Shown: positions 1,641 through 15,876 of the stretch, one piece after another
Numbering within the stretch: the stretch's first letter is position 1
How the letters are laid out: each line of letters starts with the position of its first letter
NCBI GenBank assembly: GCA_018696595.1
Contig: JABHQW010000008.1
Coordinates: forward strand, 64,001-128,000
Length of the DNA: 64,000 bases
Direction of reading: 5' to 3'
Origin: Candidatus Woesearchaeota archaeon
Lineage (GTDB): Archaea > Nanobdellota > Nanobdellia > Woesearchaeales > GW2011-AR9
Position numbers and translations under genes: made by a program
The notes under the pieces: model-generated
Databases searched by the model: none
What the model saw: the letters and a program-made list of their open reading frames with translations, nothing else
Told to the model about the DNA's origin: nothing

Positions 1641-2915
1641 ATGAATATTTTTGTAAACATACTATTATGGATCGCATATGCAGCATCTTTGTATTTCTCA
1701 ATTTTCTTATTACTAGTCTTTTTTGACAATAGAACAATTTTCGCTCAAGAAGAGTCATCCGCAAACCCCAAAATCACTCCAGAAGTTACAGTAATTGTTC
1801 CTGCATATAACGAAGAAAAAACAATTACTAGAACTTTACAATCCATTTGTAATTTAGATTACCCAAAAGAAAAGTTAGAAGTCTTGGTAGTGAATGACGG
1901 TTCAAAAGATAAAACTAAAGAAATAATTCAAGAATTTATCAAAGATAAACCCAACTTTAAACTAATCTCTCACTCCAATCAAGGTAAAGCTGCTTCAATG
2001 AATAAAGCGTTAAATGTAGCAAATGGAGAATTCTTTGCTTGTCTTGATGCAGATTCCTTTGTTGATTCTAAAACACTAAAGAAAATGTTATCCTTATACT
2101 ACAAAGAAGACGATCCTTCTCTTGTAATTATTACTCCAGCAATGAAAGTTTACAAACCTAAGAACATTCTCCAAAAAATCCAATGGCTAGAATATTTAGT
2201 AATAATCCTAATTGCCCGTATTACAAGTCAAATTGATTCGTTATACGTTGCACCTGGACCATTTTCGTTATACAAAACAAAAGTAATTCAGGAACTGGGT
2301 GGATTTGATGAAAAGAATATTACCGAAGATCAAGAGATTGCTTACAGAGTTCAAAGGAACCAGTATAAGATCAAACAATGTTTTGATGGGTATGTTTTCA
2401 CAACTGCTCCAAAAAAGATTAAACCATTTTATAAACAGAGAAGAAGGTGGTATTTAGGTAGTATTATGTGTATTAACCAGTATAAAGATATGGTTGCTAA
2501 CAGAAAGTACGGAGACTTTGGAGTGATGCAAATGATCAAAAATGTTTTGGGTTATGTTCTAGCAATAACAGGGATATCGTTAGCGGTGTACTTAATTTTC
2601 CTACCATTATTTAATAAGTTAAAAAACCTAATTTTAATCAAGTTCAATCTGTGGCCTTGGTTAACTAGTTTAGAATTAAAATTTAATTTCATCACTTTAC
2701 TTTTGATTGATTTTAGAAAAGGGTTCATCATCGCTTTTCTTTTTATGATTGGGTTCTTTTTCTTTTATTTAGCCCACAAAAATGCAAAAGAGAAAATGAT
2801 GAAATTTGGTCTTATTGCATTAATCCCTTATTTCATATTTTACTATTTGCTTAAAGGGATAATACTATTATTATCATTATTTGAATTTACGAGAGGTAGA
2901 AAAATAAAATGGTAG
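1641..2915 (+). CDS. Processive GT2 beta-glycosyltransferase (cellulose synthase / PgaC-like)
   Basis: PAYNEE, VNDGS, DADS, TED and QRRRW motifs (D,D,D,QxxRW), one N-terminal TM and several C-terminal TMs. Confidence 0.85.
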   Translation: MNIFVNILLWIAYAASLYFSIFLLLVFFDNRTIFAQEESSANPKITPEVTVIVPAYNEEKTITRTLQSICNLDYPKEKLEVLVVNDGSKDKTKEIIQEFIKDKPNFKLISHSNQGKAASMNKALNVANGEFFACLDADSFVDSKTLKKMLSLYYKEDDPSLVIITPAMKVYKPKNILQKIQWLEYLVIILIARITSQIDSLYVAPGPFSLYKTKVIQELGGFDEKNITEDQEIAYRVQRNQYKIKQCFDGYVFTTAPKKIKPFYKQRRRWYLGSIMCINQYKDMVANRKYGDFGVMQMIKNVLGYVLAITGISLAVYLIFLPLFNKLKNLILIKFNLWPWLTSLELKFNFITLLLIDFRKGFIIAFLFMIGFFFFYLAHKNAKEKMMKFGLIALIPYFIFYYLLKGIILLLSLFEFTRGRKIKW

Positions 2916-3652
2916 AAGAAAAAAATAAAGTTCAAAAGGAGAAAAAAGAAGAAAAAGAAAGCATTAGTACTTTCAGAAGAATTAGTAAAGACAAATACAT
3001 TCTTGCAGGAATCATTACTTTCCTAATCTTTTCTTTAGGTCTAACATTTGGTTTCATATTAGAAGATTATCGTTATGGCTTAGTGGAAGAAATTAACATG
3101 GAACAAGAAGTCAAGTATTTAAGTTTACAACTCCAATATTTATATTTGGATGTTTTCAGTAATCAAGATAATTGCCCAATATTAGCTACAACTTTAAAGA
3201 AAACTGTTGAAGATTTAGATGAATCATTAAGTCAAGTTATTGCTTATGAAGAGAATAACAAAGGTTCAAAGATAGAACAAGACTTAATTATGCGAAGATA
3301 CGTATTAGATAATTTGCGTTATTGGCTTTTGTCCTTAGAAAGTAAACGTAGATGTGATCTTGACATTGTACCAATACTTTACTTTTACTCCACTGAATGC
3401 CCTTCCTGCCCAAACCAAGGGGCTGTTCTAACTTTCTTCAAAAATAAATTTGGAGAACAAGTATTAGTGTTTCCAATCAATTTAGATTTAAGACAGAAAG
3501 AACCAATGGTAGAAATAACAAAGTCACAATTTAACATCAATAAGATTCCCACTTTAGTTATTGATAACAAAAAGTATGAGGGGGTTATGCCTAAAGAAAC
3601 ATTGCAAAAACTGATTTGCTCTTCATTAAAGAATAAAGAAAATTGTGATTAA
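2909..3652 (+). CDS. Membrane-anchored thioredoxin-fold protein
   Basis: Single TM (aa ~30-50), FYSTECPSCP CxxC motif, IPTLV cis-Pro-like motif and extra Cys residues. Start overlaps the GT2 stop. Confidence 0.7.
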   Translation: MVEEKNKVQKEKKEEKESISTFRRISKDKYILAGIITFLIFSLGLTFGFILEDYRYGLVEEINMEQEVKYLSLQLQYLYLDVFSNQDNCPILATTLKKTVEDLDESLSQVIAYEENNKGSKIEQDLIMRRYVLDNLRYWLLSLESKRRCDLDIVPILYFYSTECPSCPNQGAVLTFFKNKFGEQVLVFPINLDLRQKEPMVEITKSQFNINKIPTLVIDNKKYEGVMPKETLQKLICSSLKNKENCD

Positions 3653-6026: not shown

Positions 6027-6509
6027 CTATTTTCTCTTCCGCACCTTAATGAAATCGCCCAAAGTAAGCTCATCAGAAGGACCTTTCTTCTTTTTGTCAA
6101 TCTCAACAGAACCAACCACATCTTTTTCAACCAATACTAAGTTCAATAGTCGTTCTAATTGGCGAGCAATGTTAAGCCTAGGCCTTAATGTTCCAGATTC
6201 CCATTTAGCCAAAATGCTTTCCTTCTCATTTAAAGAATTGGCAAACTCTTCTTGAGTCATACATTTTTGTTCTCTCGCTTTACGAATTAACTGAGAATAA
6301 TTCCGAACTATTCTAAATTCAGGCTTATTTTGTTGCTTAGAAAAAGATTTTCTATTTGTCCCAGATGAAAATGTTCTTGTCCCGTGTCCATAACTTTTCT
6401 TTTTAACAGTACCATATTTACTACAACCAGAACATACACTAAGCTCTCCACCTTCAATTTCTGCTAAAATAAGGTTTCCTTCCTTCCCACACATCTCACA
6501 AATTGGCAT
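6027..6509 (-). CDS. mbf1: Archaeal multiprotein bridging factor aMBF1 (Zn ribbon + HTH)
   Basis: CEMCG...CSGCSKYG Zn ribbon, IRKAREQK...HTH...WESG, C-terminal LTLGD. Confidence 0.9.
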   Translation of the reverse strand: MPICEMCGKEGNLILAEIEGGELSVCSGCSKYGTVKKKSYGHGTRTFSSGTNRKSFSKQQNKPEFRIVRNYSQLIRKAREQKCMTQEEFANSLNEKESILAKWESGTLRPRLNIARQLERLLNLVLVEKDVVGSVEIDKKKKGPSDELTLGDFIKVRKRK

Positions 6510-6637
6510 TTTAGAATGTAAAAACAGAACCCATATTAAAAGCTAACGGTCATAAGAACTGATTAAAGTATTACACTATAATAAATCTTATAAAGGACCC
6601 CTGCTTAAAACCAAAATAAAGGGCGAGGTGGTCTAAT

Positions 6638-9600
6638 TTGGAAGAAAAAAGACTTGAAGAAGAAAATACAAATAATACCAATAACATTAATACTGTCAAC
6701 ATTACAAACGATATTATAAACAATAATCCAGAAGTTAATATTAACGATCCTGAGGTTAAAATTCTTGCTGAAGAGACTGAAATCGCTAAAGAAGAGACCA
6801 CAATAAATTTTAAAGAAAATAACCAAGAGCACAAAATAGAAGAAAGCAAAAGTAATGATAAAGAAAAGGAAAATGATGATGAAAAAAAGGCAGACAAAGA
6901 TGAAGAAATTGCCTTTGACTTCACTAAAACAAAAGAAAAAATAGTTGGATTCTTTAAAACAGATAAAAAATCAAATAAAAACAAACACAAAGAACAACAT
7001 CACTCTCATCATCATGAAAAAGAACAAAACTCAGAGAAAAAAGACTCTGAAGAAACTTCTTTTGATTTGAAAGAAATAAATAATGTATTTAAGAAAAATG
7101 CTAAATGGTTAATCCCTGTTCTTCTAATCTTTATTGCAATCTTTGTATCTAGTTATTTTAGAATGATGCCTTCAGATCTTCCAATCACAGATGCTTGGGC
7201 TGAGAATTCAGTAGACAATTTTTATAAACAACAGATACAACAACAAATTGATCAACAATATCCTAATTTACCACCACAAAACAAAGGCGCTTTAGTAGAA
7301 AAAGAGTTTCAAAACTTTCTCGATAATAATGAAGATTTAGTAAAACAACAAACCCAATCAACATCACAAGAGTATAAAAATTATTTCAAAGATGATTCTG
7401 GACAGACCTATCTATTAGCAATTGACCCGTACTATTGGTTCGCAGAGTCAAGAAATTATGTAGAAAACGGACAATTAGGAGATGGAACCAATTCTGAAGG
7501 AGATAGAATATTTAGTTTAAGAGGCGGAAGAGAAGATAAATCAATAACACAACTATCTTTTCACCCATTATTCCAAGGAATGTTGTTTAAAGTGTTAAGT
7601 TTCTTCAATAGAGATCTAACTTTATTACGAGTATCTTTCCTGCTACCTGCAATATTAATTGCACTATCGTTAATTCCTGCTTTCTTCATTGGAAGAAAAA
7701 TTGCCGGCAATGTTGGTGGGTTTTTTGCAGCAATAATCATAGCTATTAATTCAGCCCTACTAGGGCGGACCCCCGCGGGATTTTCTGACACTGACCCCTA
7801 TAACATACTTTTCCCATTAATAATTGCTTGGCTTTTCTTAGAAGCCTATACTATCAAAGAAAAATGGCAGAAACTTAGTGTTTTAGGTTTAGCTGGTTTA
7901 TTCACTGGTTTTTACGCAATCTCTTGGGGTGGATGGCACAACATTGTAAATTTTATTGTTTACGCTGCCATTGCATATTTGTTATATCAAACCTTCATTC
8001 ACCGTTCAGAGTTTAAAAAAGGAATAACCAATTTCTTTAAAAATAAAGAAATTAAAAACACTTTGTTAGTTTTATTCGCATATGTTATATCCTCTGGTAT
8101 TTTTGTTACTTGGTTTAAAAGTTTCGAAGATTTTATCCGAATACCCCTAAGACCTTTTCAATTTATTTTTATGAAAGATGTTGCAGTTAAATCTATTTGG
8201 CCAAATGTTTTAACAACCGTTGCAGAATTTAACGAAATTGCATTTAGTAATATTATTGCTCAAATGGGGGGCACTCTTTTGTTTTTCATTGGTGTTCTTG
8301 GAATAGTTTTAACATTTGTTAATAAAAATAAAGAAGGCAAAAGAAGAATTCATTACGCAATTTTCTTAACATTGTGGTTTATTGGAACTGCCTACTCATT
8401 CACTCAGGGAGTGCGTTTTTCAATCTTACTTGTACCTGCGTTTGCCATCTCATTTGGAGCGGCAATAGGAATTATTTATCAGTGGACATCCGGTTGGCTT
8501 AATAAAGAACTAAAATTGAGTAAATATTTAGCTAAGGGTTTAGTTTTGTTAATCTTTTGTTTGTTATTAATTGCTCCAATCACATCAGCAGATAAGATTG
8601 GAAAAAGTGAAATCCCAAGTATGAATGATGCCTGGTATAGTACCCTCACAAAAATTAAAGACACTTCAAATGATGCAATGATTACTTCATGGTGGGATTT
8701 TGGCCATTGGTTCTATGCAATTAGTGAAAGAAGAGTAACATTTGATGGTGGAGACCAAGGAGAAAGAATTCATTGGGTTGGAAAAACCTTGCTTACTGAT
8801 GATGAACAAGTTTCAGTAGGATTATTAAGAATGCTAAATTGTGGACAAGAAAAACCGGTACATATACTAGAAGAATTTTTAGAAAATGATGCAGTTAAAG
8901 CAGTAGACGTTCTTAATAAAATAATGGTAGTTAATGATAAAAAAGAAGCAATAAAAATATTGAAAAATGAAGGATTAACAACAGAACAGATTGCAGAAGT
9001 AATCAAATTAACTTATTGCGAAGACTTAATTGATCAGTATTATATTACTTCTGAAGATATGGTTGGAAAAGCTGGAGTCTGGGGCCATTTTGGTAGTTGG
9101 GATTTTAACAAAGCACTAATGTACCAAACAGTTATTAAAGACAAAGATAACGGAAAACAGATTTTAATGAACCAGTTTGGTTTAGATGAAGAAAAAGCAG
9201 ACCAATATTATTACAATATTATCAATACGGATGCTGATCGATGGATTGCACCATGGCCGGGCTATCACACTGGAATAAAAGGATGTGACTTGGTTTCAGG
9301 AACATCACAATTAAGTTGTTCTAACTCTGTCCAAGGACAAAATATAAATTTCTTGATAGACTTAAACACATACCAAGTTAGTATAGAAGGTAATCCTAAC
9401 GTTGTCCCAAACAGCATTGTTTACGCAACTAAAGAAGGAATAAAAGAGAAAGAACTTGAAGGGCAAAAGTTGGGTTCTTCCTTAGTTTTAATCCCAAATG
9501 GAGAAGGTTATAAAATTCTACTTGCCGACCCATTACAAGCAAATAGTATGTTCACAAAGCTATTTTACTTTGAAGGACATGGATTAAAATGTTTCAATAA

Positions 9601-10015
9601 ATTTGATGACCAACAACAAATGACTGGGGGTGGAAGAATAATTACTTGGACTGTTGATTTTAATTGCCAACAAGAAAACAGTATCTTTTTTCTTCCAAAA
9701 CCACTAAAAGAAGAAGTTAATGCTGCCCACATCTTAATTTCAACAGAAGATAAGAGTGAAGAAGAAGCATTAATATTAATTCAAGAAATAGAAAGTCAAG
9801 CAACAATAGAAAGTTTTGCAGAACTAGCCAAAAAGTATTCACAAGATCCAGGAAGCGCAGTTAATGGTGGAACTTTAGGGTGGTTTGGAAAAGGATTAAT
9901 GGTGCAAGAATTTGAAGAAGCTACTTTTTCACTAAATATTGGAGAGATTTCCAAACCAGTAAAAACACAGTTTGGGTATCATTTGATTTATTTAGTTGAT
10001 AAGAGAATGAGTTAG
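6638..10015 (+). CDS. aglB: Oligosaccharyltransferase AglB/STT3 fused to a C-terminal parvulin-type peptidyl-prolyl isomerase
   Basis: AIDPYYW, RTPAGFSDTD, TVAEF and SWWDFGHW (WWDxG) motifs. C-terminal AAHILI...FAELAKKYSQDPGSAVNGGTLGWF...MVQEFEEATF...PVKTQFGYHLI is a rotamase domain. TTG start preceded by GAGGTG. Confidence 0.92.
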   Translation: MEEKRLEEENTNNTNNINTVNITNDIINNNPEVNINDPEVKILAEETEIAKEETTINFKENNQEHKIEESKSNDKEKENDDEKKADKDEEIAFDFTKTKEKIVGFFKTDKKSNKNKHKEQHHSHHHEKEQNSEKKDSEETSFDLKEINNVFKKNAKWLIPVLLIFIAIFVSSYFRMMPSDLPITDAWAENSVDNFYKQQIQQQIDQQYPNLPPQNKGALVEKEFQNFLDNNEDLVKQQTQSTSQEYKNYFKDDSGQTYLLAIDPYYWFAESRNYVENGQLGDGTNSEGDRIFSLRGGREDKSITQLSFHPLFQGMLFKVLSFFNRDLTLLRVSFLLPAILIALSLIPAFFIGRKIAGNVGGFFAAIIIAINSALLGRTPAGFSDTDPYNILFPLIIAWLFLEAYTIKEKWQKLSVLGLAGLFTGFYAISWGGWHNIVNFIVYAAIAYLLYQTFIHRSEFKKGITNFFKNKEIKNTLLVLFAYVISSGIFVTWFKSFEDFIRIPLRPFQFIFMKDVAVKSIWPNVLTTVAEFNEIAFSNIIAQMGGTLLFFIGVLGIVLTFVNKNKEGKRRIHYAIFLTLWFIGTAYSFTQGVRFSILLVPAFAISFGAAIGIIYQWTSGWLNKELKLSKYLAKGLVLLIFCLLLIAPITSADKIGKSEIPSMNDAWYSTLTKIKDTSNDAMITSWWDFGHWFYAISERRVTFDGGDQGERIHWVGKTLLTDDEQVSVGLLRMLNCGQEKPVHILEEFLENDAVKAVDVLNKIMVVNDKKEAIKILKNEGLTTEQIAEVIKLTYCEDLIDQYYITSEDMVGKAGVWGHFGSWDFNKALMYQTVIKDKDNGKQILMNQFGLDEEKADQYYYNIINTDADRWIAPWPGYHTGIKGCDLVSGTSQLSCSNSVQGQNINFLIDLNTYQVSIEGNPNVVPNSIVYATKEGIKEKELEGQKLGSSLVLIPNGEGYKILLADPLQANSMFTKLFYFEGHGLKCFNKFDDQQQMTGGGRIITWTVDFNCQQENSIFFLPKPLKEEVNAAHILISTEDKSEEEALILIQEIESQATIESFAELAKKYSQDPGSAVNGGTLGWFGKGLMVQEFEEATFSLNIGEISKPVKTQFGYHLIYLVDKRMS

Positions 10016-11062: not shown

Positions 11063-12198
11063 AAATACTATTTATTTGTGAGAATTACTTGCCCCATTAT
11101 GGGGGTGCCGAAGTTGTTTTCAAGAATCTTGCAGAATCTTATGCCATTAAAGGTCATAACGTTGCATTACTAACTCACCAAATTAAAGGAACAAAAAAAA
11201 GAGAAGAAATGGGGGCAGTTAAGGTTATCAGAGTCCCCTCATTTAACTCCAGATATATTTTTAGTTTTTCTGCTATTCTTAAGGCAATTAAATTAGCTAA
11301 ACATTGTGATGTAATCCAAACAACTACTTTTAATGGAACTTTTCCTGCTTGGATAGCTGCCAAAGTTTGCCGCAAACCAATAGTAATCACTGTACATGAA
11401 GTTTGGGTTAATAAATGGAGAAAAGTGACTAGTTTTCCCCGCTGGAAATGCTTCATTCATGATTTATTAGAAAGAGCAATTTATTTGTTACCATATGACC
11501 AATATGTTTGTGTTTCCAATGCAACAAAAAAAGACTTGCTTAAATTAGGAATAAATGAAAATAAAGTAAAAACAATCTATAATGGATTAGATTATAATTT
11601 CTGGAACAAAAATAATTTTAGTGACAAAAAGGTTCAAGAGATTAAGGAGCAACTCAATCTTAAAAAGAAAGTAGTTTATTACGCTAGTGGAAGACCCGGA
11701 GAATCAAAAGGTTTTGAAACTTTCATTAAAGCAATCCCTTTAATAAAGAGTAAAGTTCCAAATTCTTTTTTCTTATTAGCTTTGGGGTCTGTTGAAAAAT
11801 ACAAAAGAAAACATTTAGAATTACTGGCCTTAATAAAAAAGTTAAGAATTGAAAAAGAGATAAAAGTAATGAATTCTGTGCCATATGAAGAATTAGGACA
11901 TTATCTCAAAGCAGCCAATTATGTGGTGGTTCCTTCATTGGCGGAAGGATTTGGTTACACTACTGTTGAAGCAGTAGCAATGGAGAAACCAGTAATTGTT
12001 AGTAATGCGGGCTCACTTCCCGAAGTGGTTAGTGGTAAACACCTCATCTTTAAAAAAGGAAGCCCCATTGATTTAGCAGAGAAAGCGATACAAACAAATC
12101 AAGGCCAATACGAAAAAAGTAAAATGAAAAAGTTTTTATGGCAAAATAGTGTTCAAAGCTATTTGAGAGTTTATGAAAGATTGCTTAACCGTTTCTGA
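11059..12198 (+). CDS. GT4 family glycosyltransferase
   Basis: YGGAEVV N-terminal motif and EGFGYTTVE (EX7E). Confidence 0.85.
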   Translation: MKILFICENYLPHYGGAEVVFKNLAESYAIKGHNVALLTHQIKGTKKREEMGAVKVIRVPSFNSRYIFSFSAILKAIKLAKHCDVIQTTTFNGTFPAWIAAKVCRKPIVITVHEVWVNKWRKVTSFPRWKCFIHDLLERAIYLLPYDQYVCVSNATKKDLLKLGINENKVKTIYNGLDYNFWNKNNFSDKKVQEIKEQLNLKKKVVYYASGRPGESKGFETFIKAIPLIKSKVPNSFFLLALGSVEKYKRKHLELLALIKKLRIEKEIKVMNSVPYEELGHYLKAANYVVVPSLAEGFGYTTVEAVAMEKPVIVSNAGSLPEVVSGKHLIFKKGSPIDLAEKAIQTNQGQYEKSKMKKFLWQNSVQSYLRVYERLLNRF

Positions 12199-14192
12199 AT
12201 TAATGGTTTCCACCACCATTCGTTATCCCTATACCAAGAAATAGTTTTATCCAAACCTTCCTCGAAGCTGATTTGTGGTCTCCAACCAAGCGCATAAAGT
12301 TTATCAACATTAACACTATACCTTTTATCATTGAATGGTCGGTCTCTTACAAAGGTAATATAAGAATCATCTTTTCCCACCTTACTGATAATTAATTTTG
12401 TTAGTTCCAAGTTGGAGATTTCTTCATGGGTCCCAATGTTATAAGTTTCACCCACTATGCCACGTTCAAAAACAACATCTAATGCTGAACAAAAGTCTTC
12501 AACATGAATATAAGTTCTAATATTTTTGCCGTCACCATGTAAAGGAACTTTTTGATCCTGTAAAAGTTGAGTTATAAAACAAGGAATTATTTTTTCTGGA
12601 AACTGGTGTGAACCATAATTATTATTACCCCTAACAATAATAATTGGTAAGTTGTATGCCGTACAATACCCTTTAACAATCATCTCTGCAGCTGCTTTTG
12701 AAGCAGAGTAAGGATTCGTTGGATTTAACTTATCATCTTCTTTAAAACTGCCTTCTAAAATATCCCCATAAACTTCATCAGTAGAAACATGGATAATTCT
12801 CTTTATGTTACATTGGCGAGCCACTTCCATTAAAACATGTGTCCCATAAGTATTAGATTGAGTAAATATTAGTGAACTTTCAAAAGAATTGTCAACATGA
12901 CTCTCGGCAGCTAAATGAATTAAACAATCAACACCTTGTAATAAATGAGCCAAAAAGTTAAAATCACAAATATCCCCCCGTACAAAACTATAATTATCTT
13001 TATTATCAAGATCCTTTAAGCTATCTAAATTTCCGGCATATGTTAACTTATCAAAATTAATAAAATTGTGTTGTGGGTACTTGTTAACCATATAACGAAT
13101 AAAATTACTTCCAATAAAACCAGCCCCACCAGTTATAACAATCTTCATTTTATTTTTTATTTTGTTTCCTAATTCATTTTTAAAACCATCAATCATTTGT
13201 CCTTCACCATCCAAAGAATTATTCTTTTTAATATTATCAAAACAAGCATTTTTATTATTGTGATTAATATATTTATTTTTTAATCTTCCAATTCCTTCTT
13301 CTAAAAATATTTTTGGAGACCACCCGGTGATAGTTTTAATTTTTGTTATATCCATAACACAACTATCTAATTCAAACAACTTTTCTTTGTAAGCTAGCTC
13401 TTCAAATACAATGTTACTATTACTTTCACAAATAGAAATTATTTGTTTAGCAACATCCCTCATAATAACTCCTTCCCCAGAACCAACATTAAATACTCCC
13501 GTTGATTTTAAATCAATAAGTCTTAGGAAAAGATTAGTTAAATCATCAATGTAAAGAAAATCTTTAAAATCATTTCCATCACCAAAGACATTAATATCTT
13601 GATTACTAATGGCTTTTTTTACGAAAATAGGAATTACATTGTTTGGTTCTCCCCGACAATCAAACCCATAAACACTAGAAACTCTTAATGAAATTATTTT
13701 CAAACCATAGATCTTATGATAATAATTGATATACTGTTCCGCAGTTTGTTTGTGTATTCCATAAAGTGAAAAAGGATTTTGAAAAAAATCCTCGTTAATC
13801 TTTTTATCTAAAGCCCCAGTTTTTCCAAATTGTGTCCGCGAACCAATAAATATATGATAACAATTTGGATTAACATTTTTGATTGCTTCTAAAACATTTA
13901 ATTCCCCTAAGCAATTAACTTTTAAACTATTGATAGCAATTTTATCTTCAACATGTTTATCTATTACTGCAGCTAAATTTATAACAACATCATGATCTTT
14001 AATTAATCTCTCAACTAATAAGTAATCGGTGATAGACCCACTCACAAAATTAACTTTTTTAAAAAAAGCACAAGATTGAATTTTATTCTCATTATTAGCT
14101 AGAATAGTAATATGGTTTTCTTGTTCCAAAAGTGTTTTCACTAAGTTTAACCCAATAAAACCATTCCCTCCAATTATTAAAATTCTTTTCAT
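12171..14192 (-). CDS. rmlB: Tandem SDR fusion: NAD-dependent epimerase/dehydratase + dTDP-glucose 4,6-dehydratase (RmlB-like)
   Basis: Two GxxGxxG Rossmann motifs (GGNGFIG, GGAGFIG) and two YxxxK motifs. The C-terminal half has DKLTYAG, HLAAESHVD, STDEVYG and NPYSASK. Confidence 0.8.
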   Translation of the reverse strand: MKRILIIGGNGFIGLNLVKTLLEQENHITILANNENKIQSCAFFKKVNFVSGSITDYLLVERLIKDHDVVINLAAVIDKHVEDKIAINSLKVNCLGELNVLEAIKNVNPNCYHIFIGSRTQFGKTGALDKKINEDFFQNPFSLYGIHKQTAEQYINYYHKIYGLKIISLRVSSVYGFDCRGEPNNVIPIFVKKAISNQDINVFGDGNDFKDFLYIDDLTNLFLRLIDLKSTGVFNVGSGEGVIMRDVAKQIISICESNSNIVFEELAYKEKLFELDSCVMDITKIKTITGWSPKIFLEEGIGRLKNKYINHNNKNACFDNIKKNNSLDGEGQMIDGFKNELGNKIKNKMKIVITGGAGFIGSNFIRYMVNKYPQHNFINFDKLTYAGNLDSLKDLDNKDNYSFVRGDICDFNFLAHLLQGVDCLIHLAAESHVDNSFESSLIFTQSNTYGTHVLMEVARQCNIKRIIHVSTDEVYGDILEGSFKEDDKLNPTNPYSASKAAAEMIVKGYCTAYNLPIIIVRGNNNYGSHQFPEKIIPCFITQLLQDQKVPLHGDGKNIRTYIHVEDFCSALDVVFERGIVGETYNIGTHEEISNLELTKLIISKVGKDDSYITFVRDRPFNDKRYSVNVDKLYALGWRPQISFEEGLDKTISWYRDNEWWWKPLIQKRLSNLS

Positions 14193-14226: not shown

Positions 14227-15876
14227 TTATTTTTTATCTCTTTTTGCTATTATGGCATTAATTCTTTTATAATCTTCAAATGTATGAATTTCAGTCCAAC
14301 CTTTATTGACTTCTAAACAATCAACTTTGTGTCCTTGCTCAATTAACTTTTGAATAGCATAAGTAAAATCTTTGTTTTTCATTTCTTCATAATTCTCAGA
14401 ATAGATTTGTTTTAGTAACTCGGTACCTTGTCCCGAAAACATTGCCATGCCAATAAATTCAAAATTTGCTTCATCCGGATCTAAATGTGAACCAATTTTA
14501 ACAATTTCATTATGGTCATCAAAAGTTAATGATCTTTCACCTAGATAGGGGTCTCTTTTACCAACAACAAGATCTAACTTTTTATTATACCGATTAGCAT
14601 TTAATTTATATGAAGAATCAATCACTAAAGTAATATCTCCTTCTTTCTTAATTAATCTTTCAACAATGTCCTTATCAAAAAGAAGGTCAGAATAAAGCAT
14701 TAGAATTTTTCCGTTCATTTTATCTTTAGCAGTCATGATTGAATGTAACGCTTTGGTGTTTTCATATTCAGAGTTATGATACTTATTAATTGCAGGAAGA
14801 TTAATTTTTTCCCCACAATAGCCAGTAACTACACTAATATCATTAATCTTAAGAGAATTAAGAATCTCAATATTTCTTTGAATAATTGGTTTGCCATTAA
14901 TATCAAGTAAACAAAGAGGGGTATCTTTTAGGTATACATCATTGAGCTTAGGATCTATTGGCTTACCAGCGGCAGGAATAATAACTTTAATCTCTTCAAA
15001 GTCTCCTTTAACATATTTCGTTTCATGGTCCTTCATTTCAAAAGTACCTTGAAGTTCAAACAATTCTTTTACTGGAATCAATTTTTCTGAGATTGTATGA
15101 ATCCCTCCTTGTTCTTTTATTTCCTTAAGTGTTTCTTTAATAGAAGTTACTGCAGATCTAATCACATGATTAGCATAAATAACCATCTTAACTTTAGGGT
15201 GATTTTTTATTTTATCCTCAGTCAAAGTGTAATAATTTGTAGGAACAATGACGATTGGAATATCTTCTTTCCACTCTTCAATAAACCTAATAACTTCTGC
15301 AGGATCACTTTGTTTAGAATGAATCATAATTGCATCTGCCCCTGCCTCAACATAAGCTTTGGCTCTTTTTTTTGCTTCTTCATGACCCCATCCAGCAATG
15401 AGGGCTTCAACACGAGCAATAACCATGAAATCATCATCTCGTTGAGCATTTTTAGCAGCCATAATCTTTCCAGAGAACTCAGCAATAGATGCTAATTCTT
15501 GTTTCCCTCCAACTAAAAGGCTATTCTGTTTTGGAAACTTTTTATCTTCCATAATTACTCCTGCAATTCCGGCTGCCTCAAATTTTTGAACCATCCGAAT
15601 TACGTTAATAGAATTACCATAACCTTGATCAACATCAACAACAACGGGAATCGTAACTGCATCATTCATAGAAACTGCCGCATCTAAATAGTCTGTCATA
15701 GTGAGAATATTAGCATCTGGAACAGCATGTGACGCCGAAACTTCTAAAGAAGAAGCCCAAACTCCTTCAAAGCCTGCTTTCTCGATTAATTTCGCAGTCA
15801 AACCATTATGAGCCCCAACTAAACGAAAGAACCCAGGAAGATTAAATAATTCACGCAATTTTTTTGATTTTTCCAT
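14227..15876 (-). CDS. pepM: Phosphoenolpyruvate mutase fused to a C-terminal sugar-phosphate nucleotidyltransferase-like domain
   Basis: GAHNGLTAK, DVDQGYG, the diagnostic EDKKFPKQNS (EDKx5NS) and ARVEALIAG motifs. C-terminal VIIPAAG...P.CLLDINGKPII...YSDLLFD is an NTP-transferase fold. Confidence 0.92.
   Translation of the reverse strand: MEKSKKLRELFNLPGFFRLVGAHNGLTAKLIEKAGFEGVWASSLEVSASHAVPDANILTMTDYLDAAVSMNDAVTIPVVVDVDQGYGNSINVIRMVQKFEAAGIAGVIMEDKKFPKQNSLLVGGKQELASIAEFSGKIMAAKNAQRDDDFMVIARVEALIAGWGHEEAKKRAKAYVEAGADAIMIHSKQSDPAEVIRFIEEWKEDIPIVIVPTNYYTLTEDKIKNHPKVKMVIYANHVIRSAVTSIKETLKEIKEQGGIHTISEKLIPVKELFELQGTFEMKDHETKYVKGDFEEIKVIIPAAGKPIDPKLNDVYLKDTPLCLLDINGKPIIQRNIEILNSLKINDISVVTGYCGEKINLPAINKYHNSEYENTKALHSIMTAKDKMNGKILMLYSDLLFDKDIVERLIKKEGDITLVIDSSYKLNANRYNKKLDLVVGKRDPYLGERSLTFDDHNEIVKIGSHLDPDEANFEFIGMAMFSGQGTELLKQIYSENYEEMKNKDFTYAIQKLIEQGHKVDCLEVNKGWTEIHTFEDYKRINAIIAKRDKK

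What the first reader, a model, noticed from the sequence alone, without database searches (positions are those of the whole stretch)
6638..10015. Oligosaccharyltransferase AglB fused to a parvulin (PrsA/SurA-like) prolyl isomerase
Seen: after the WWDFG-containing extracellular domain, the same ORF continues into an intact-looking rotamase domain of about 95 aa (AAHILI...SQDPGS..NGGTLG..F..MVQEFEEATF...KTQFGYHLI). Established: OSTs act best on unfolded or flexible sequons, and PrsA-type parvulins fold exported proteins. Inference: this is a glycosylate-and-fold machine that couples sequon access or proline isomerisation to N-glycan transfer outside the membrane.
Basis: partly seen in the sequence, partly recalled or inferred. 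Interest (0 to 1): 0.8.

Follow-up and report, generated by a model that had tools for sequence, protein, structure and literature searches.

The report
Archaeal glycosylation enzyme with built-in prolyl isomerase
A tiny marine DPANN archaeon makes its only protein N-glycosylating enzyme (AglB) as one chain with an outward-facing prolyl-isomerase (parvulin) domain. Relatives carry an unrelated isomerase (FKBP) at the same spot, so glycosylation and folding of exported proteins appear to be physically coupled.

Summary
Window 6638-10015 (+) is one open 1125-aa frame. It holds a complete STT3/AglB oligosaccharyltransferase with every catalytic motif invariant. After a short linker comes a complete parvulin domain with the catalytic positions H1031, D1070, T1110 and H1115.

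It is not an assembly error:
- Contigs from four independent marine runs bridge the junction without a single difference.
- More than 100 protein clusters from Woesearchaeota/Nanoarchaeota share the architecture.

The gene is the genome's only STT3 and its only parvulin. The parvulin is the best-conserved part of the protein.

Among the 150 nearest 50%-identity representatives of the AglB external domain, 43 carry a C-terminal tail of 80 aa or more. The only Pfam families found in those tails are parvulin (22) and FKBP (16). On the AglB tree both labels are patchy and interleaved.

Best reading: an oligosaccharyltransferase with a tethered extracellular catalytic prolyl isomerase that acts on the exported chains it glycosylates. 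Coupling to glycosylation is inferred, not shown. The main rival is that AglB serves only as a membrane anchor.

I found no paper describing the fusion. Databases annotate it automatically, and this scan had already met it on other DNA.

The parts
6625..6631 (+). Shine-Dalgarno-like GAGGTGG, 6 nt before the TTG start
   Evidence: read directly
6638..10015 (+). whole aglB-parvulin ORF, 1125 aa, TTG start, stop included
6638..7108 (+). residues 1-157: E/K/N-rich low-complexity tail, cytoplasmic by inference, carrying two conserved FDxxK...FFKK-like motifs; no Pfam family
7109..7165 (+). TM1 (residues 158-176), with KKNAK on the inner side
7169..7411 (+). residues 178-258: conserved three-helix insertion in external loop 1, ahead of the catalytic Asp; function unknown
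7367..8473 (+). STT3 membrane core (Pfam PF02516, residues 244-612)
   Evidence: structural match Z 28-29.6 to STT3A, Stt3 and AfAglB
7424..7426 (+). D263 of the DPYY motif (first catalytic Asp, EL1), invariant in 96 of 96
7787..7795 (+). D384-T-D386 (second acidic, DxD-type motif), invariant
8213..8233 (+). TTVAEFN (TIXE-type motif of EL5; E530 invariant)
8585..9673 (+). external C-terminal OST domain (residues 650-1012)
   Evidence: unfused relatives end right after it
8690..8704 (+). WWDFG motif (residues 685-689), invariant
9056..9070 (+). DK motif DMVGK (D807, K811), invariant
9674..9715 (+). short linker (residues 1013-1026). The spacing from the last conserved Cys to the catalytic His is 21 residues here and exactly 18 in 57 of 78 relatives
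9716..10003 (+). parvulin (PpiC/Rotamase) domain, residues 1027-1122; catalytic positions H1031 (9728-9730), D1070 (9845-9847), T1110 (9965-9967), H1115 (9980-9982)

Best explanation
Shown: this is a genuine single gene for the archaeal oligosaccharyltransferase AglB. It has a GT-C fold and all catalytic motifs. Its external C-terminal domain continues through a linker of about 14 residues into a bare, intact parvulin prolyl-isomerase domain. By the topology of every STT3-family enzyme, that domain lies outside the cytoplasmic membrane. It is the only OST and the only parvulin of a 1.19-Mb, 97%-complete DPANN genome from seawater.

Inferred: the parvulin is a catalytically active PPIase held within a few nanometres of the OST. 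It meets the same freshly exported, still unfolded chains that AglB glycosylates, and it catalyses their proline-limited folding steps and/or keeps proline-containing stretches pliable while sequons are read. In this reading AglB is both enzyme and docking site for a foldase. This is a covalent, single-chain counterpart of the folding-factor subunits that accompany eukaryotic OST.
For: Architecture and integrity:
- ORF, Pfam domains and invariant OST motifs.
- AF2 model of residues 150-1125 with pLDDT 93.2.
- The OST part matches human STT3A at Z 29.6, AfAglB at Z 28.3 and PglB at Z 26.4. The parvulin part matches SurA P2 and PrsA at Z about 18, rmsd 1.3-1.6 A, 40-46% identity (sequence match).

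Not an artefact:
- Four independent run assemblies bridge the junction.
- 99 of the 120 listed clusters share the architecture.

Selection on the domain:
- The parvulin is the most conserved segment: mean 60% identity, against 42% for the TM core and 53% for the external OST domain.
- H1031 and H1115 are invariant in 96 of 96. T/S fills position 1110 in 96 of 96. D or C fills position 1070 in 75 of 96.

Convergence on PPIase function:
- Three AglB genes from two other families of the same order carry a full FKBP_C domain at the C-terminus instead.
- Among the 150 best 50%-identity representatives of the external domain, 43 have tails of 80 aa or more. The only Pfam families in those tails are Rotamase (22) and FKBP_C (16).
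- Both are minimal catalytic domains without chaperone inserts.

Not just a substitute anchor: in at least 7 genomes outside the window's family, a frame of 1001-1151 aa (the fusion's size) holding a parvulin coexists with a separate parvulin frame of 387-496 aa. That is the size of the membrane-anchored PrsA-like forms I fetched from other genomes of the order.

Short, length-conserved linker.

Eukaryotic parallel: FKBP11 sits beside OST-A at the human translocon (PMC12804085; PDB 9n9j).
Against: - There is no experiment of any kind, and no RNA run was found.
- The domain is dispensable in evolution. The tree of 117 close AglBs needs 12 changes of state, at least 7 of them forced by well-supported branches. 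An unfused orthologue sits in the same gene neighbourhood with no separate parvulin gene.
- No OST column is conserved specifically in the fused proteins. So there is no sign of a fixed docking surface.
- 21 of 96 fused proteins have Gly at the Asp/Cys catalytic position, and two representatives have degenerate parvulin tails. Catalysis may therefore not be universal.
- In the human case the FKBP11 active site is buried and the authors argue against an isomerase role.
- The genome also encodes a cyclophilin with a signal peptide and a lipobox-like LLSC. The fused parvulin is thus probably not the only external PPIase.
- I could not obtain model coordinates or PAE, so the distance and orientation relative to the peptide site are unknown.
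Confidence: 0.6

Rival explanations
1. Anchor sharing only. The parvulin is a general extracellular foldase that merely uses AglB as a convenient membrane anchor. An archaeon without an outer membrane must tether such enzymes. There is no functional link to glycosylation beyond being at the cell surface.
For: Frequent gain or loss among close relatives. No OST residues track the domain. The phylum also tethers parvulins by their own N-terminal TM helix (PrsA-like L010, L011, L014) and fuses them to thioredoxin-like domains (L012, L013), so fusing foldases is common there. In the window's own family the fused copy is the only parvulin, as expected if it simply replaces a PrsA-like gene.
Against: Two unrelated PPIase folds were fused to the same protein at the same position. 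No other domain family was found there among the 43 long tails. If any anchor would do, a spread of carriers and of passengers is expected. Outside family f1, the fused form appears to coexist with a separately anchored PrsA-like parvulin in at least 7 genomes (judged by frame size). The linker is short and fixed in length rather than a loose leash.
Confidence: 0.25
2. Non-catalytic holdase or adaptor. The domain binds unfolded or proline-containing segments, or a partner protein, and delays folding so that sequons stay accessible. Isomerase chemistry is not needed. This is the logic of SurA P1, of Ost3/6 in yeast, and of FKBP11 at the human translocon.
For: 21 of 96 relatives have Gly at the catalytic Asp/Cys position. 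Degenerate tails occur in P0199 and P0252. The FKBP11 active site is buried and the protein works as an adaptor (PMC12804085). From general knowledge, PPIase activity of PrsA and SurA is largely dispensable for their chaperone role.
Against: In this protein all four catalytic positions are present, and the two His are invariant in 96 of 96. The chaperone (NC) domain that carries most holdase activity in PrsA and SurA is absent. Both alternative passengers are minimal catalytic domains.
Confidence: 0.12
3. Artefact: two genes joined by misassembly, a frameshift or a sequencing error.
For: None found.
Against: Contigs of four independent runs cross the junction identically. The identical protein lies on 5 contigs, and 99 of the 120 listed clusters have the same architecture. 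The linker is conserved.
Confidence: 0.01

Closest known systems
Single-subunit oligosaccharyltransferases: A. fulgidus AglB-L (3WAK, 7E9S), C. lari PglB (3RCE, 5OGL, 6GXC), and eukaryotic STT3A/Stt3 (8B6L, 8AGC)
   Same: GT-C fold (Z 26-29.6). EL1 Asp, DxD-type motif, TIXE-type motif, WWDxG and DK motifs are all present and invariant. The C-terminal domain is external.
   Different: None of these carries a PPIase domain. This family also has a cytoplasmic tail of about 157 aa and a three-helix insertion of about 80 aa between TM1 and the catalytic Asp.
Extracytoplasmic parvulin foldases: SurA domain P2 (1M5Y, 4G2P), PrsA (6VJ4, 4WO7), PEB4 (3RFW)
   Same: The parvulin domain is 40-46% identical with rmsd 1.3-1.6 A. 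It has the same SQDPGS..GG.LGW signature as SurA P2. It is located outside the membrane and kept at the membrane.
   Different: There is no N/C chaperone (SurA_N-like) domain. The tether is an enzyme, not a lipid or a dedicated helix. As a whole protein it is not a member of the PrsA/SurA family.
AglB-FKBP fusions in the same archaeal order (L003, L004, L005; 16 of 150 representatives)
   Same: The same AglB family, the same C-terminal position, and the same kind of passenger activity (PPIase).
   Different: The passenger has an unrelated fold (FKBP_C instead of parvulin).
Folding factors attached to eukaryotic OST: FKBP11 with CCDC134 at the OST-A translocon (PMC12804085, PDB 9N9J), and the thioredoxin-like Ost3/Ost6 subunits (7OCI; their role is from general knowledge)
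   Same: A protein with a folding-catalyst fold is placed next to the STT3 active site on the extracytoplasmic side.
   Different: They are separate polypeptides, bound non-covalently and dependent on substrate or ribosome. The FKBP11 catalytic site is buried and it acts as an adaptor.
Single-domain archaeal parvulins NmPin and CsPinA (2M08, 2RQS; PMC4922055)
   Same: Archaeal parvulin fold. NmPin is reported at the outer face of the membrane.
   Different: That paper states that all archaeal parvulins known in 2016 were single-domain. Here the domain is part of an 1125-aa enzyme. Small parvulins of this phylum separate from the fused ones at 98% SH-aLRT.

Membership tests
STT3/AglB/PglB oligosaccharyltransferase (GT66, GT-C) | STT3 membrane-domain profile above the curated cut-off | tested here: met
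   PF02516 at 128.5 bits against a cut-off of 24.5
STT3/AglB/PglB oligosaccharyltransferase (GT66, GT-C) | GT-C fold with a multi-span membrane domain plus an extracytoplasmic C-terminal domain | tested here: met
   Model pLDDT 93.2. Z 29.6 to 8b6l_I, 28.3 to 3wak, 26.4 to 6gxc_A, spanning model residues 1-865.
STT3/AglB/PglB oligosaccharyltransferase (GT66, GT-C) | Catalytic acidic residues in EL1 and in the DxD-type motif, plus the TIXE-type motif in EL5 | tested here: met
   D263, D384, D386 and E530 (TTVAE) are invariant in 96 of 96. Their assignment to the named motifs rests on my knowledge of PglB and AglB.
STT3/AglB/PglB oligosaccharyltransferase (GT66, GT-C) | WWDYG-type motif and DK/MI motif in the external domain | tested here: met
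   WWDFG 685-689 and DMVGK 807-811 are invariant
STT3/AglB/PglB oligosaccharyltransferase (GT66, GT-C) | Transfers a lipid-linked glycan to Asn of N-X-S/T | not testable with these tools
   Enzyme assay needed. The context fits: GT2, GT4, a PMT_2-type GT-C enzyme, UbiA and sugar-nucleotide genes flank it.
Parvulin (PpiC/Rotamase) PPIase | Rotamase profile above the cut-off, and the parvulin fold | tested here: met
   PF13616 at 103.9 bits and PF00639 at 85.4 bits. Z 18, rmsd 1.3-1.6 A to SurA P2 and PrsA.
Parvulin (PpiC/Rotamase) PPIase | Catalytic tetrad His / Asp-or-Cys / Thr-or-Ser / His, and the hydrophobic proline pocket | tested here: met
   H1031, D1070, T1110 and H1115 are present, and L1080, M1088 and F1092 are conserved. 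Equivalence to Pin1 and Par14 positions is from memory plus the SurA P2 alignment. Across relatives, position 1070 is D in 68, C in 7 and G in 21.
Parvulin (PpiC/Rotamase) PPIase | Measurable cis-trans isomerase activity | not testable with these tools
   Needs a protease-coupled or NMR assay
PrsA/SurA-type foldase (whole-protein family) | Parvulin domain embedded in an N/C-terminal chaperone (SurA_N-like) domain | tested here: not met
   No SurA_N-type family at E<=0.01 on the whole protein, and none at E<=1 on residues 176-262 or 700-880. Real PrsA-like proteins of the phylum (L010, L011, L014) have about 190-215 residues (cytoplasmic tail, TM helix and a long, helix-like stretch) ahead of the parvulin (domains read by eye, not run through Pfam).
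Pin1-type phospho-specific parvulin | WW domain, and a basic cluster in the beta1-alpha1 loop | tested here: not met
   No WW domain. The loop after AAHILIS is acidic (STEDKSEEE). The role of the basic cluster is from general knowledge.

The most novel reading that the evidence does not exclude
The PPIase is an integral working part of the glycosylation cycle rather than a neighbour. Held by a short fixed linker beside the peptide groove, it isomerises or grips Xaa-Pro bonds flanking sequons, so that exported chains are fed to, or released from, the OST in the right conformation. Recurrent recruitment of two unrelated PPIase folds by DPANN AglB, together with the FKBP11/OST-A association in humans, would then reflect one general rule: N-glycosylation machines need a proline-directed folding factor at their active site.
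Probability: 0.28. Interest if true: 0.8.

Novelty: new variant of a known kind. Interest (0 to 1): 0.62.

Why it matters
[quoted passage not shown] OSTs need flexible acceptor segments, and eukaryotes solve this with extra subunits and translocon partners. Here evolution has welded a folding catalyst directly onto the catalytic subunit, and has done so with two unrelated isomerase folds. This gives a minimal single-polypeptide system in which the coupling can be tested: delete, mutate or swap one domain.

It also overturns the published view that archaeal parvulins are all single-domain proteins (PMC4922055). The DPANN lineage has AglB-fused, PrsA-like and PrsA-thioredoxin forms.

Practically, an OST with a built-in foldase could be of interest for glyco-engineering of recombinant proteins.

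Tried and rejected
- Complex prediction of the OST body (150-1010) against the parvulin (1021-1125) scored 0.00, which the tool reports as no verdict. It says nothing either way.
- The AF2 job returns no coordinates or PAE, so the distance from parvulin to peptide site could not be measured. pTM 0.85 is dominated by the 860-residue OST body and does not show docking.
- The search for OST columns conserved only in fused proteins found none.
- The parvulin-domain tree (104 columns) could not resolve whether the fused domains have one origin. PrsA-like domains scatter among them without support.
- No RNA holder was listed among the sequencing runs.
- The ESM Atlas feature search gave no usable hit.
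- Lenient Pfam scans of the N-terminal tail, the EL1 insertion and the helical part of the external domain gave nothing meaningful.
- Literature searches for an OST-PPIase fusion and a 2024 review of archaeal N-glycosylation gave no description of it. This covers only the held open-access library.
- My first regex labelling of fused versus unfused proteins was wrong for 8 proteins. I replaced it with the Pfam-based labels.
- Some 'none' representatives are fragments cut at contig ends, so the number of changes there is an upper estimate.
Full report
**What is there**

Window 6638-10015 (+) is a single open frame of 1125 codons. The TTG at 6638 is preceded by GAGGTGG at 6625-6631 with a 6-nt spacer. 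The frame opens only six codons further upstream (open frame 1131 aa). There is no ATG before the first membrane helix, and relatives conserve two motifs inside the first 157 residues. The long N-terminal tail is therefore most likely translated.

Pfam finds:
- STT3 at residues 244-612 (E 6e-37)
- a weak STT3/PglB core at 681-775
- Rotamase_3 / Rotamase at 1024-1122 (E 1e-29 / 5e-24)

NCBIfam sees only the PrsA/SurA-type parvulin part and weak PglB and archaeal STT3 matches.

**Is it real?**

Yes.
- The identical protein lies on 5 contigs, and 99 of the 120 clusters listed for residues 640-1125 have the same STT3 plus Rotamase architecture (three further rows are fragments). Where named, they are Woesearchaeota, Nanoarchaeota or Nanoarchaeia.
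- The junction stretch is held by 20 marine or seawater metagenome runs from at least 15 studies.
- Contigs of four runs that are not candidate sources cross nt 9665-9716 with no difference and no indel.

**The two enzymes**

In an alignment of 96 fused proteins (A1), every OST catalytic element is invariant:
- D263 (DPYY)
- R377
- D384 and D386
- TTVAE530
- R593
- WWDFG 685-689
- D807 and K811 (DK motif)

An AlphaFold2 model of residues 150-1125 has mean pLDDT 93.2.
- Residues 1-865 of the model align to human STT3A (Z 29.6), yeast Stt3 (Z 29.3), A. fulgidus AglB (Z 28.3) and PglB (Z 26.4).
- Residues 872-976 align to SurA P2, PrsA and PEB4 at Z about 18 and rmsd 1.2-1.6 A.

By sequence the parvulin is closest to SurA P2 (E 2e-23) and PrsA. 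The catalytic positions are H1031, D1070, T1110 and H1115. Across relatives the two His are invariant, position 1110 is T or S, and position 1070 is D (68), C (7) or G (21).

The parvulin is the most conserved segment of the protein: 60% mean identity, against 42% for the TM core and 53% for the external OST domain. There is no SurA_N-type chaperone domain, so the passenger is a bare catalytic domain.

**Topology**

This part is inferred. TM1 has KKNAK on its N-terminal side. The whole membrane domain superposes on STT3 enzymes whose C-terminal domain is extracytoplasmic (plus established knowledge). The parvulin follows that domain after about 14 residues, so it is outside.

The spacing from the last conserved Cys of the OST domain to the catalytic His is 21 residues here. 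It is exactly 18 in 57 of 78 relatives, which makes it a short, length-conserved tether.

**Genome context**

The genome is 1.19 Mb in 8 contigs and 97% complete. It has one STT3 and one parvulin, both in this gene.

Its other PPIases are:
- a 183-aa cyclophilin with a signal peptide and a lipobox-like LLSC
- two FKBPs without signals

The gene sits in a glycosylation cluster, in this order:
- GT2
- a membrane-anchored thioredoxin-like CPSC protein
- a PMT_2-type GT-C enzyme
- UbiA
- HTH (minus strand)
- aglB-parvulin
- GT2
- DUF2304
- GT4

An unfused orthologue (P0045, 64% identical in the external domain) lies in the same neighbourhood. The next gene starts 95 bp after its stop and there is no separate parvulin gene. 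Unfused relatives end right after the ...WKVDFxCQQ end of the OST domain, so the module boundary is clean.

**Distribution**

I searched 401 genomes of the phylum, all at least 90% complete.
- 196 have a parvulin.
- At least 22 hold it in a frame of 937-1218 aa: 13 of 42 genomes in the window's family and 9 genomes in 8 other families of the same order. Not each long frame was checked for STT3.
- Among the listed matches, none of the long frames lies outside the window's order.
- In the window's family the fused copy is the only parvulin. In at least 7 genomes of other families it coexists with a parvulin frame of 387-496 aa. That is the size of the PrsA-like forms I fetched from other genomes of the order.

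Those PrsA-like proteins have an N-terminal TM helix, a long helix-like stretch and then the parvulin. Some also carry a C-terminal thioredoxin-like CxxC part.

**The FKBP test**

Earlier notes of this scan said that relatives carry FKBP at the same place, and I tested that. The FKBP_C profile falls in frames of 1129-1216 aa in three genomes. All three are STT3 plus a C-terminal full-length FKBP_C, with E about 1e-21.

An exhaustive HMMER search with the external OST domain alone (residues 641-1012) found 1519 representatives. Among the top 150:
- 80 end within 30 residues of the domain.
- 27 have acidic or N-x-S/T-rich tails of 30-79 residues.
- 43 have tails of 80 residues or more.

Pfam on those 43 tails finds only Rotamase (22) and FKBP_C (16), and no other family. 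The remaining tails are four acidic low-complexity ones and one degenerate parvulin-like one (P0199 or P0252) that Pfam misses.

On a tree of the external domain, the parvulin label needs 17 changes (at least 8 forced by supported branches). The FKBP label needs 9 changes (at least 5 forced), and the two are interleaved. On the closer set of 117 AglBs, fused against unfused needs 12 changes (at least 7 forced). Counts cannot separate gains from losses, and some 'none' rows are fragments.

**Reading**

Two unrelated minimal PPIase domains occupy the same position on the same enzyme. Nothing else is found there, and the parvulin is under stronger constraint than its carrier. Together these argue that proline-isomerase function next to the OST is what selection keeps.

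The most likely mechanism is that AglB glycosylates exported, still flexible chains while the tethered parvulin catalyses or controls their proline-limited folding at the same place.

The following weaken a tight mechanistic coupling:
- The domain turns over frequently in evolution.
- No OST residues track its presence.
- A quarter of relatives have Gly at the catalytic position.
- In humans, FKBP11 next to OST-A works as an adaptor with a buried active site (PMC12804085).

They keep two rivals alive: AglB as a mere anchor, and a non-catalytic holdase.

**Novelty**

Databases name these proteins automatically ('peptidylprolyl isomerase', 'STT3 domain-containing protein'). This scan had already noted the architecture on other genomes. 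I found no paper that describes it. A 2016 study states that all known archaeal parvulins are single-domain (PMC4922055). I class it as a new variant of a known kind of enzyme.

Noticed in passing
window 2909-3652 (+): A 247-aa protein with a K/E-rich N-terminus, one TM helix and an external thioredoxin-like domain with a CPSC motif. It lies between GT2 and the PMT_2-type GT-C gene. A 65%-identical copy sits at the same place beside an unfused AglB (L006 1-570). It is a possible extracellular thiol-disulfide oxidoreductase kept with the glycosylation genes, reminiscent of Ost3/6.
   Followed up: partly
window 12171-14192 (-) and 14227-15876 (-): A 673-aa protein with two NAD-dependent epimerase/dehydratase domains, next to a PEP mutase fused to a nucleotidyltransferase domain. 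This suggests phosphonate-decorated sugars or glycans in this archaeon.
   Followed up: no
window 6638-7108 (+), residues 1-157: The long E/K/N/H-rich tail ahead of TM1 holds two similar motifs (FDFTKTKEKIVGFFK at about residues 93-107, and FDLKEINNVFKKNAK at about 142-156). Both are conserved in relatives, including AglB-FKBP forms that also have long N-termini. No Pfam family matches and the role is unknown.
   Followed up: partly
window 7169-7411 (+), residues 178-258: A conserved three-helix insertion lies between TM1 and the catalytic Asp of external loop 1 (50% mean identity). As far as I recall, solved AglB, PglB and STT3 structures have the Asp about 15-30 residues after TM1.
   Followed up: partly
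L012 and L013 (genomes G297, G226): PrsA-like archaeal proteins in which the parvulin is followed by a thioredoxin-like CxxC domain (WCPHC, CPFC). This is a second kind of foldase fusion in the same order.
   Followed up: partly
L007 1414-1965 (own genome, contig C3): A 183-aa cyclophilin with a signal peptide ending in LLSC. It is a likely lipid-anchored extracellular PPIase in the same genome.
   Followed up: partly
tails of P0211, P0214, P0226, P0098 and others: AglB relatives without a PPIase often end in tails of 30-80 residues. These are either strongly acidic or packed with N-x-S/T sequons, and so are possibly self-glycosylated.
   Followed up: no
window 6027-6509 (-): An HTH_3 regulator is transcribed divergently from aglB. 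It is conserved at the same position beside the unfused orthologue (L006 3378-3857, with a weak HVO_2718_N hit).
   Followed up: no
P0199 and P0252: Two AglB representatives carry degenerate parvulin-like tails that lack the GG.LG signature. They are possible inactivated domains.
   Followed up: no
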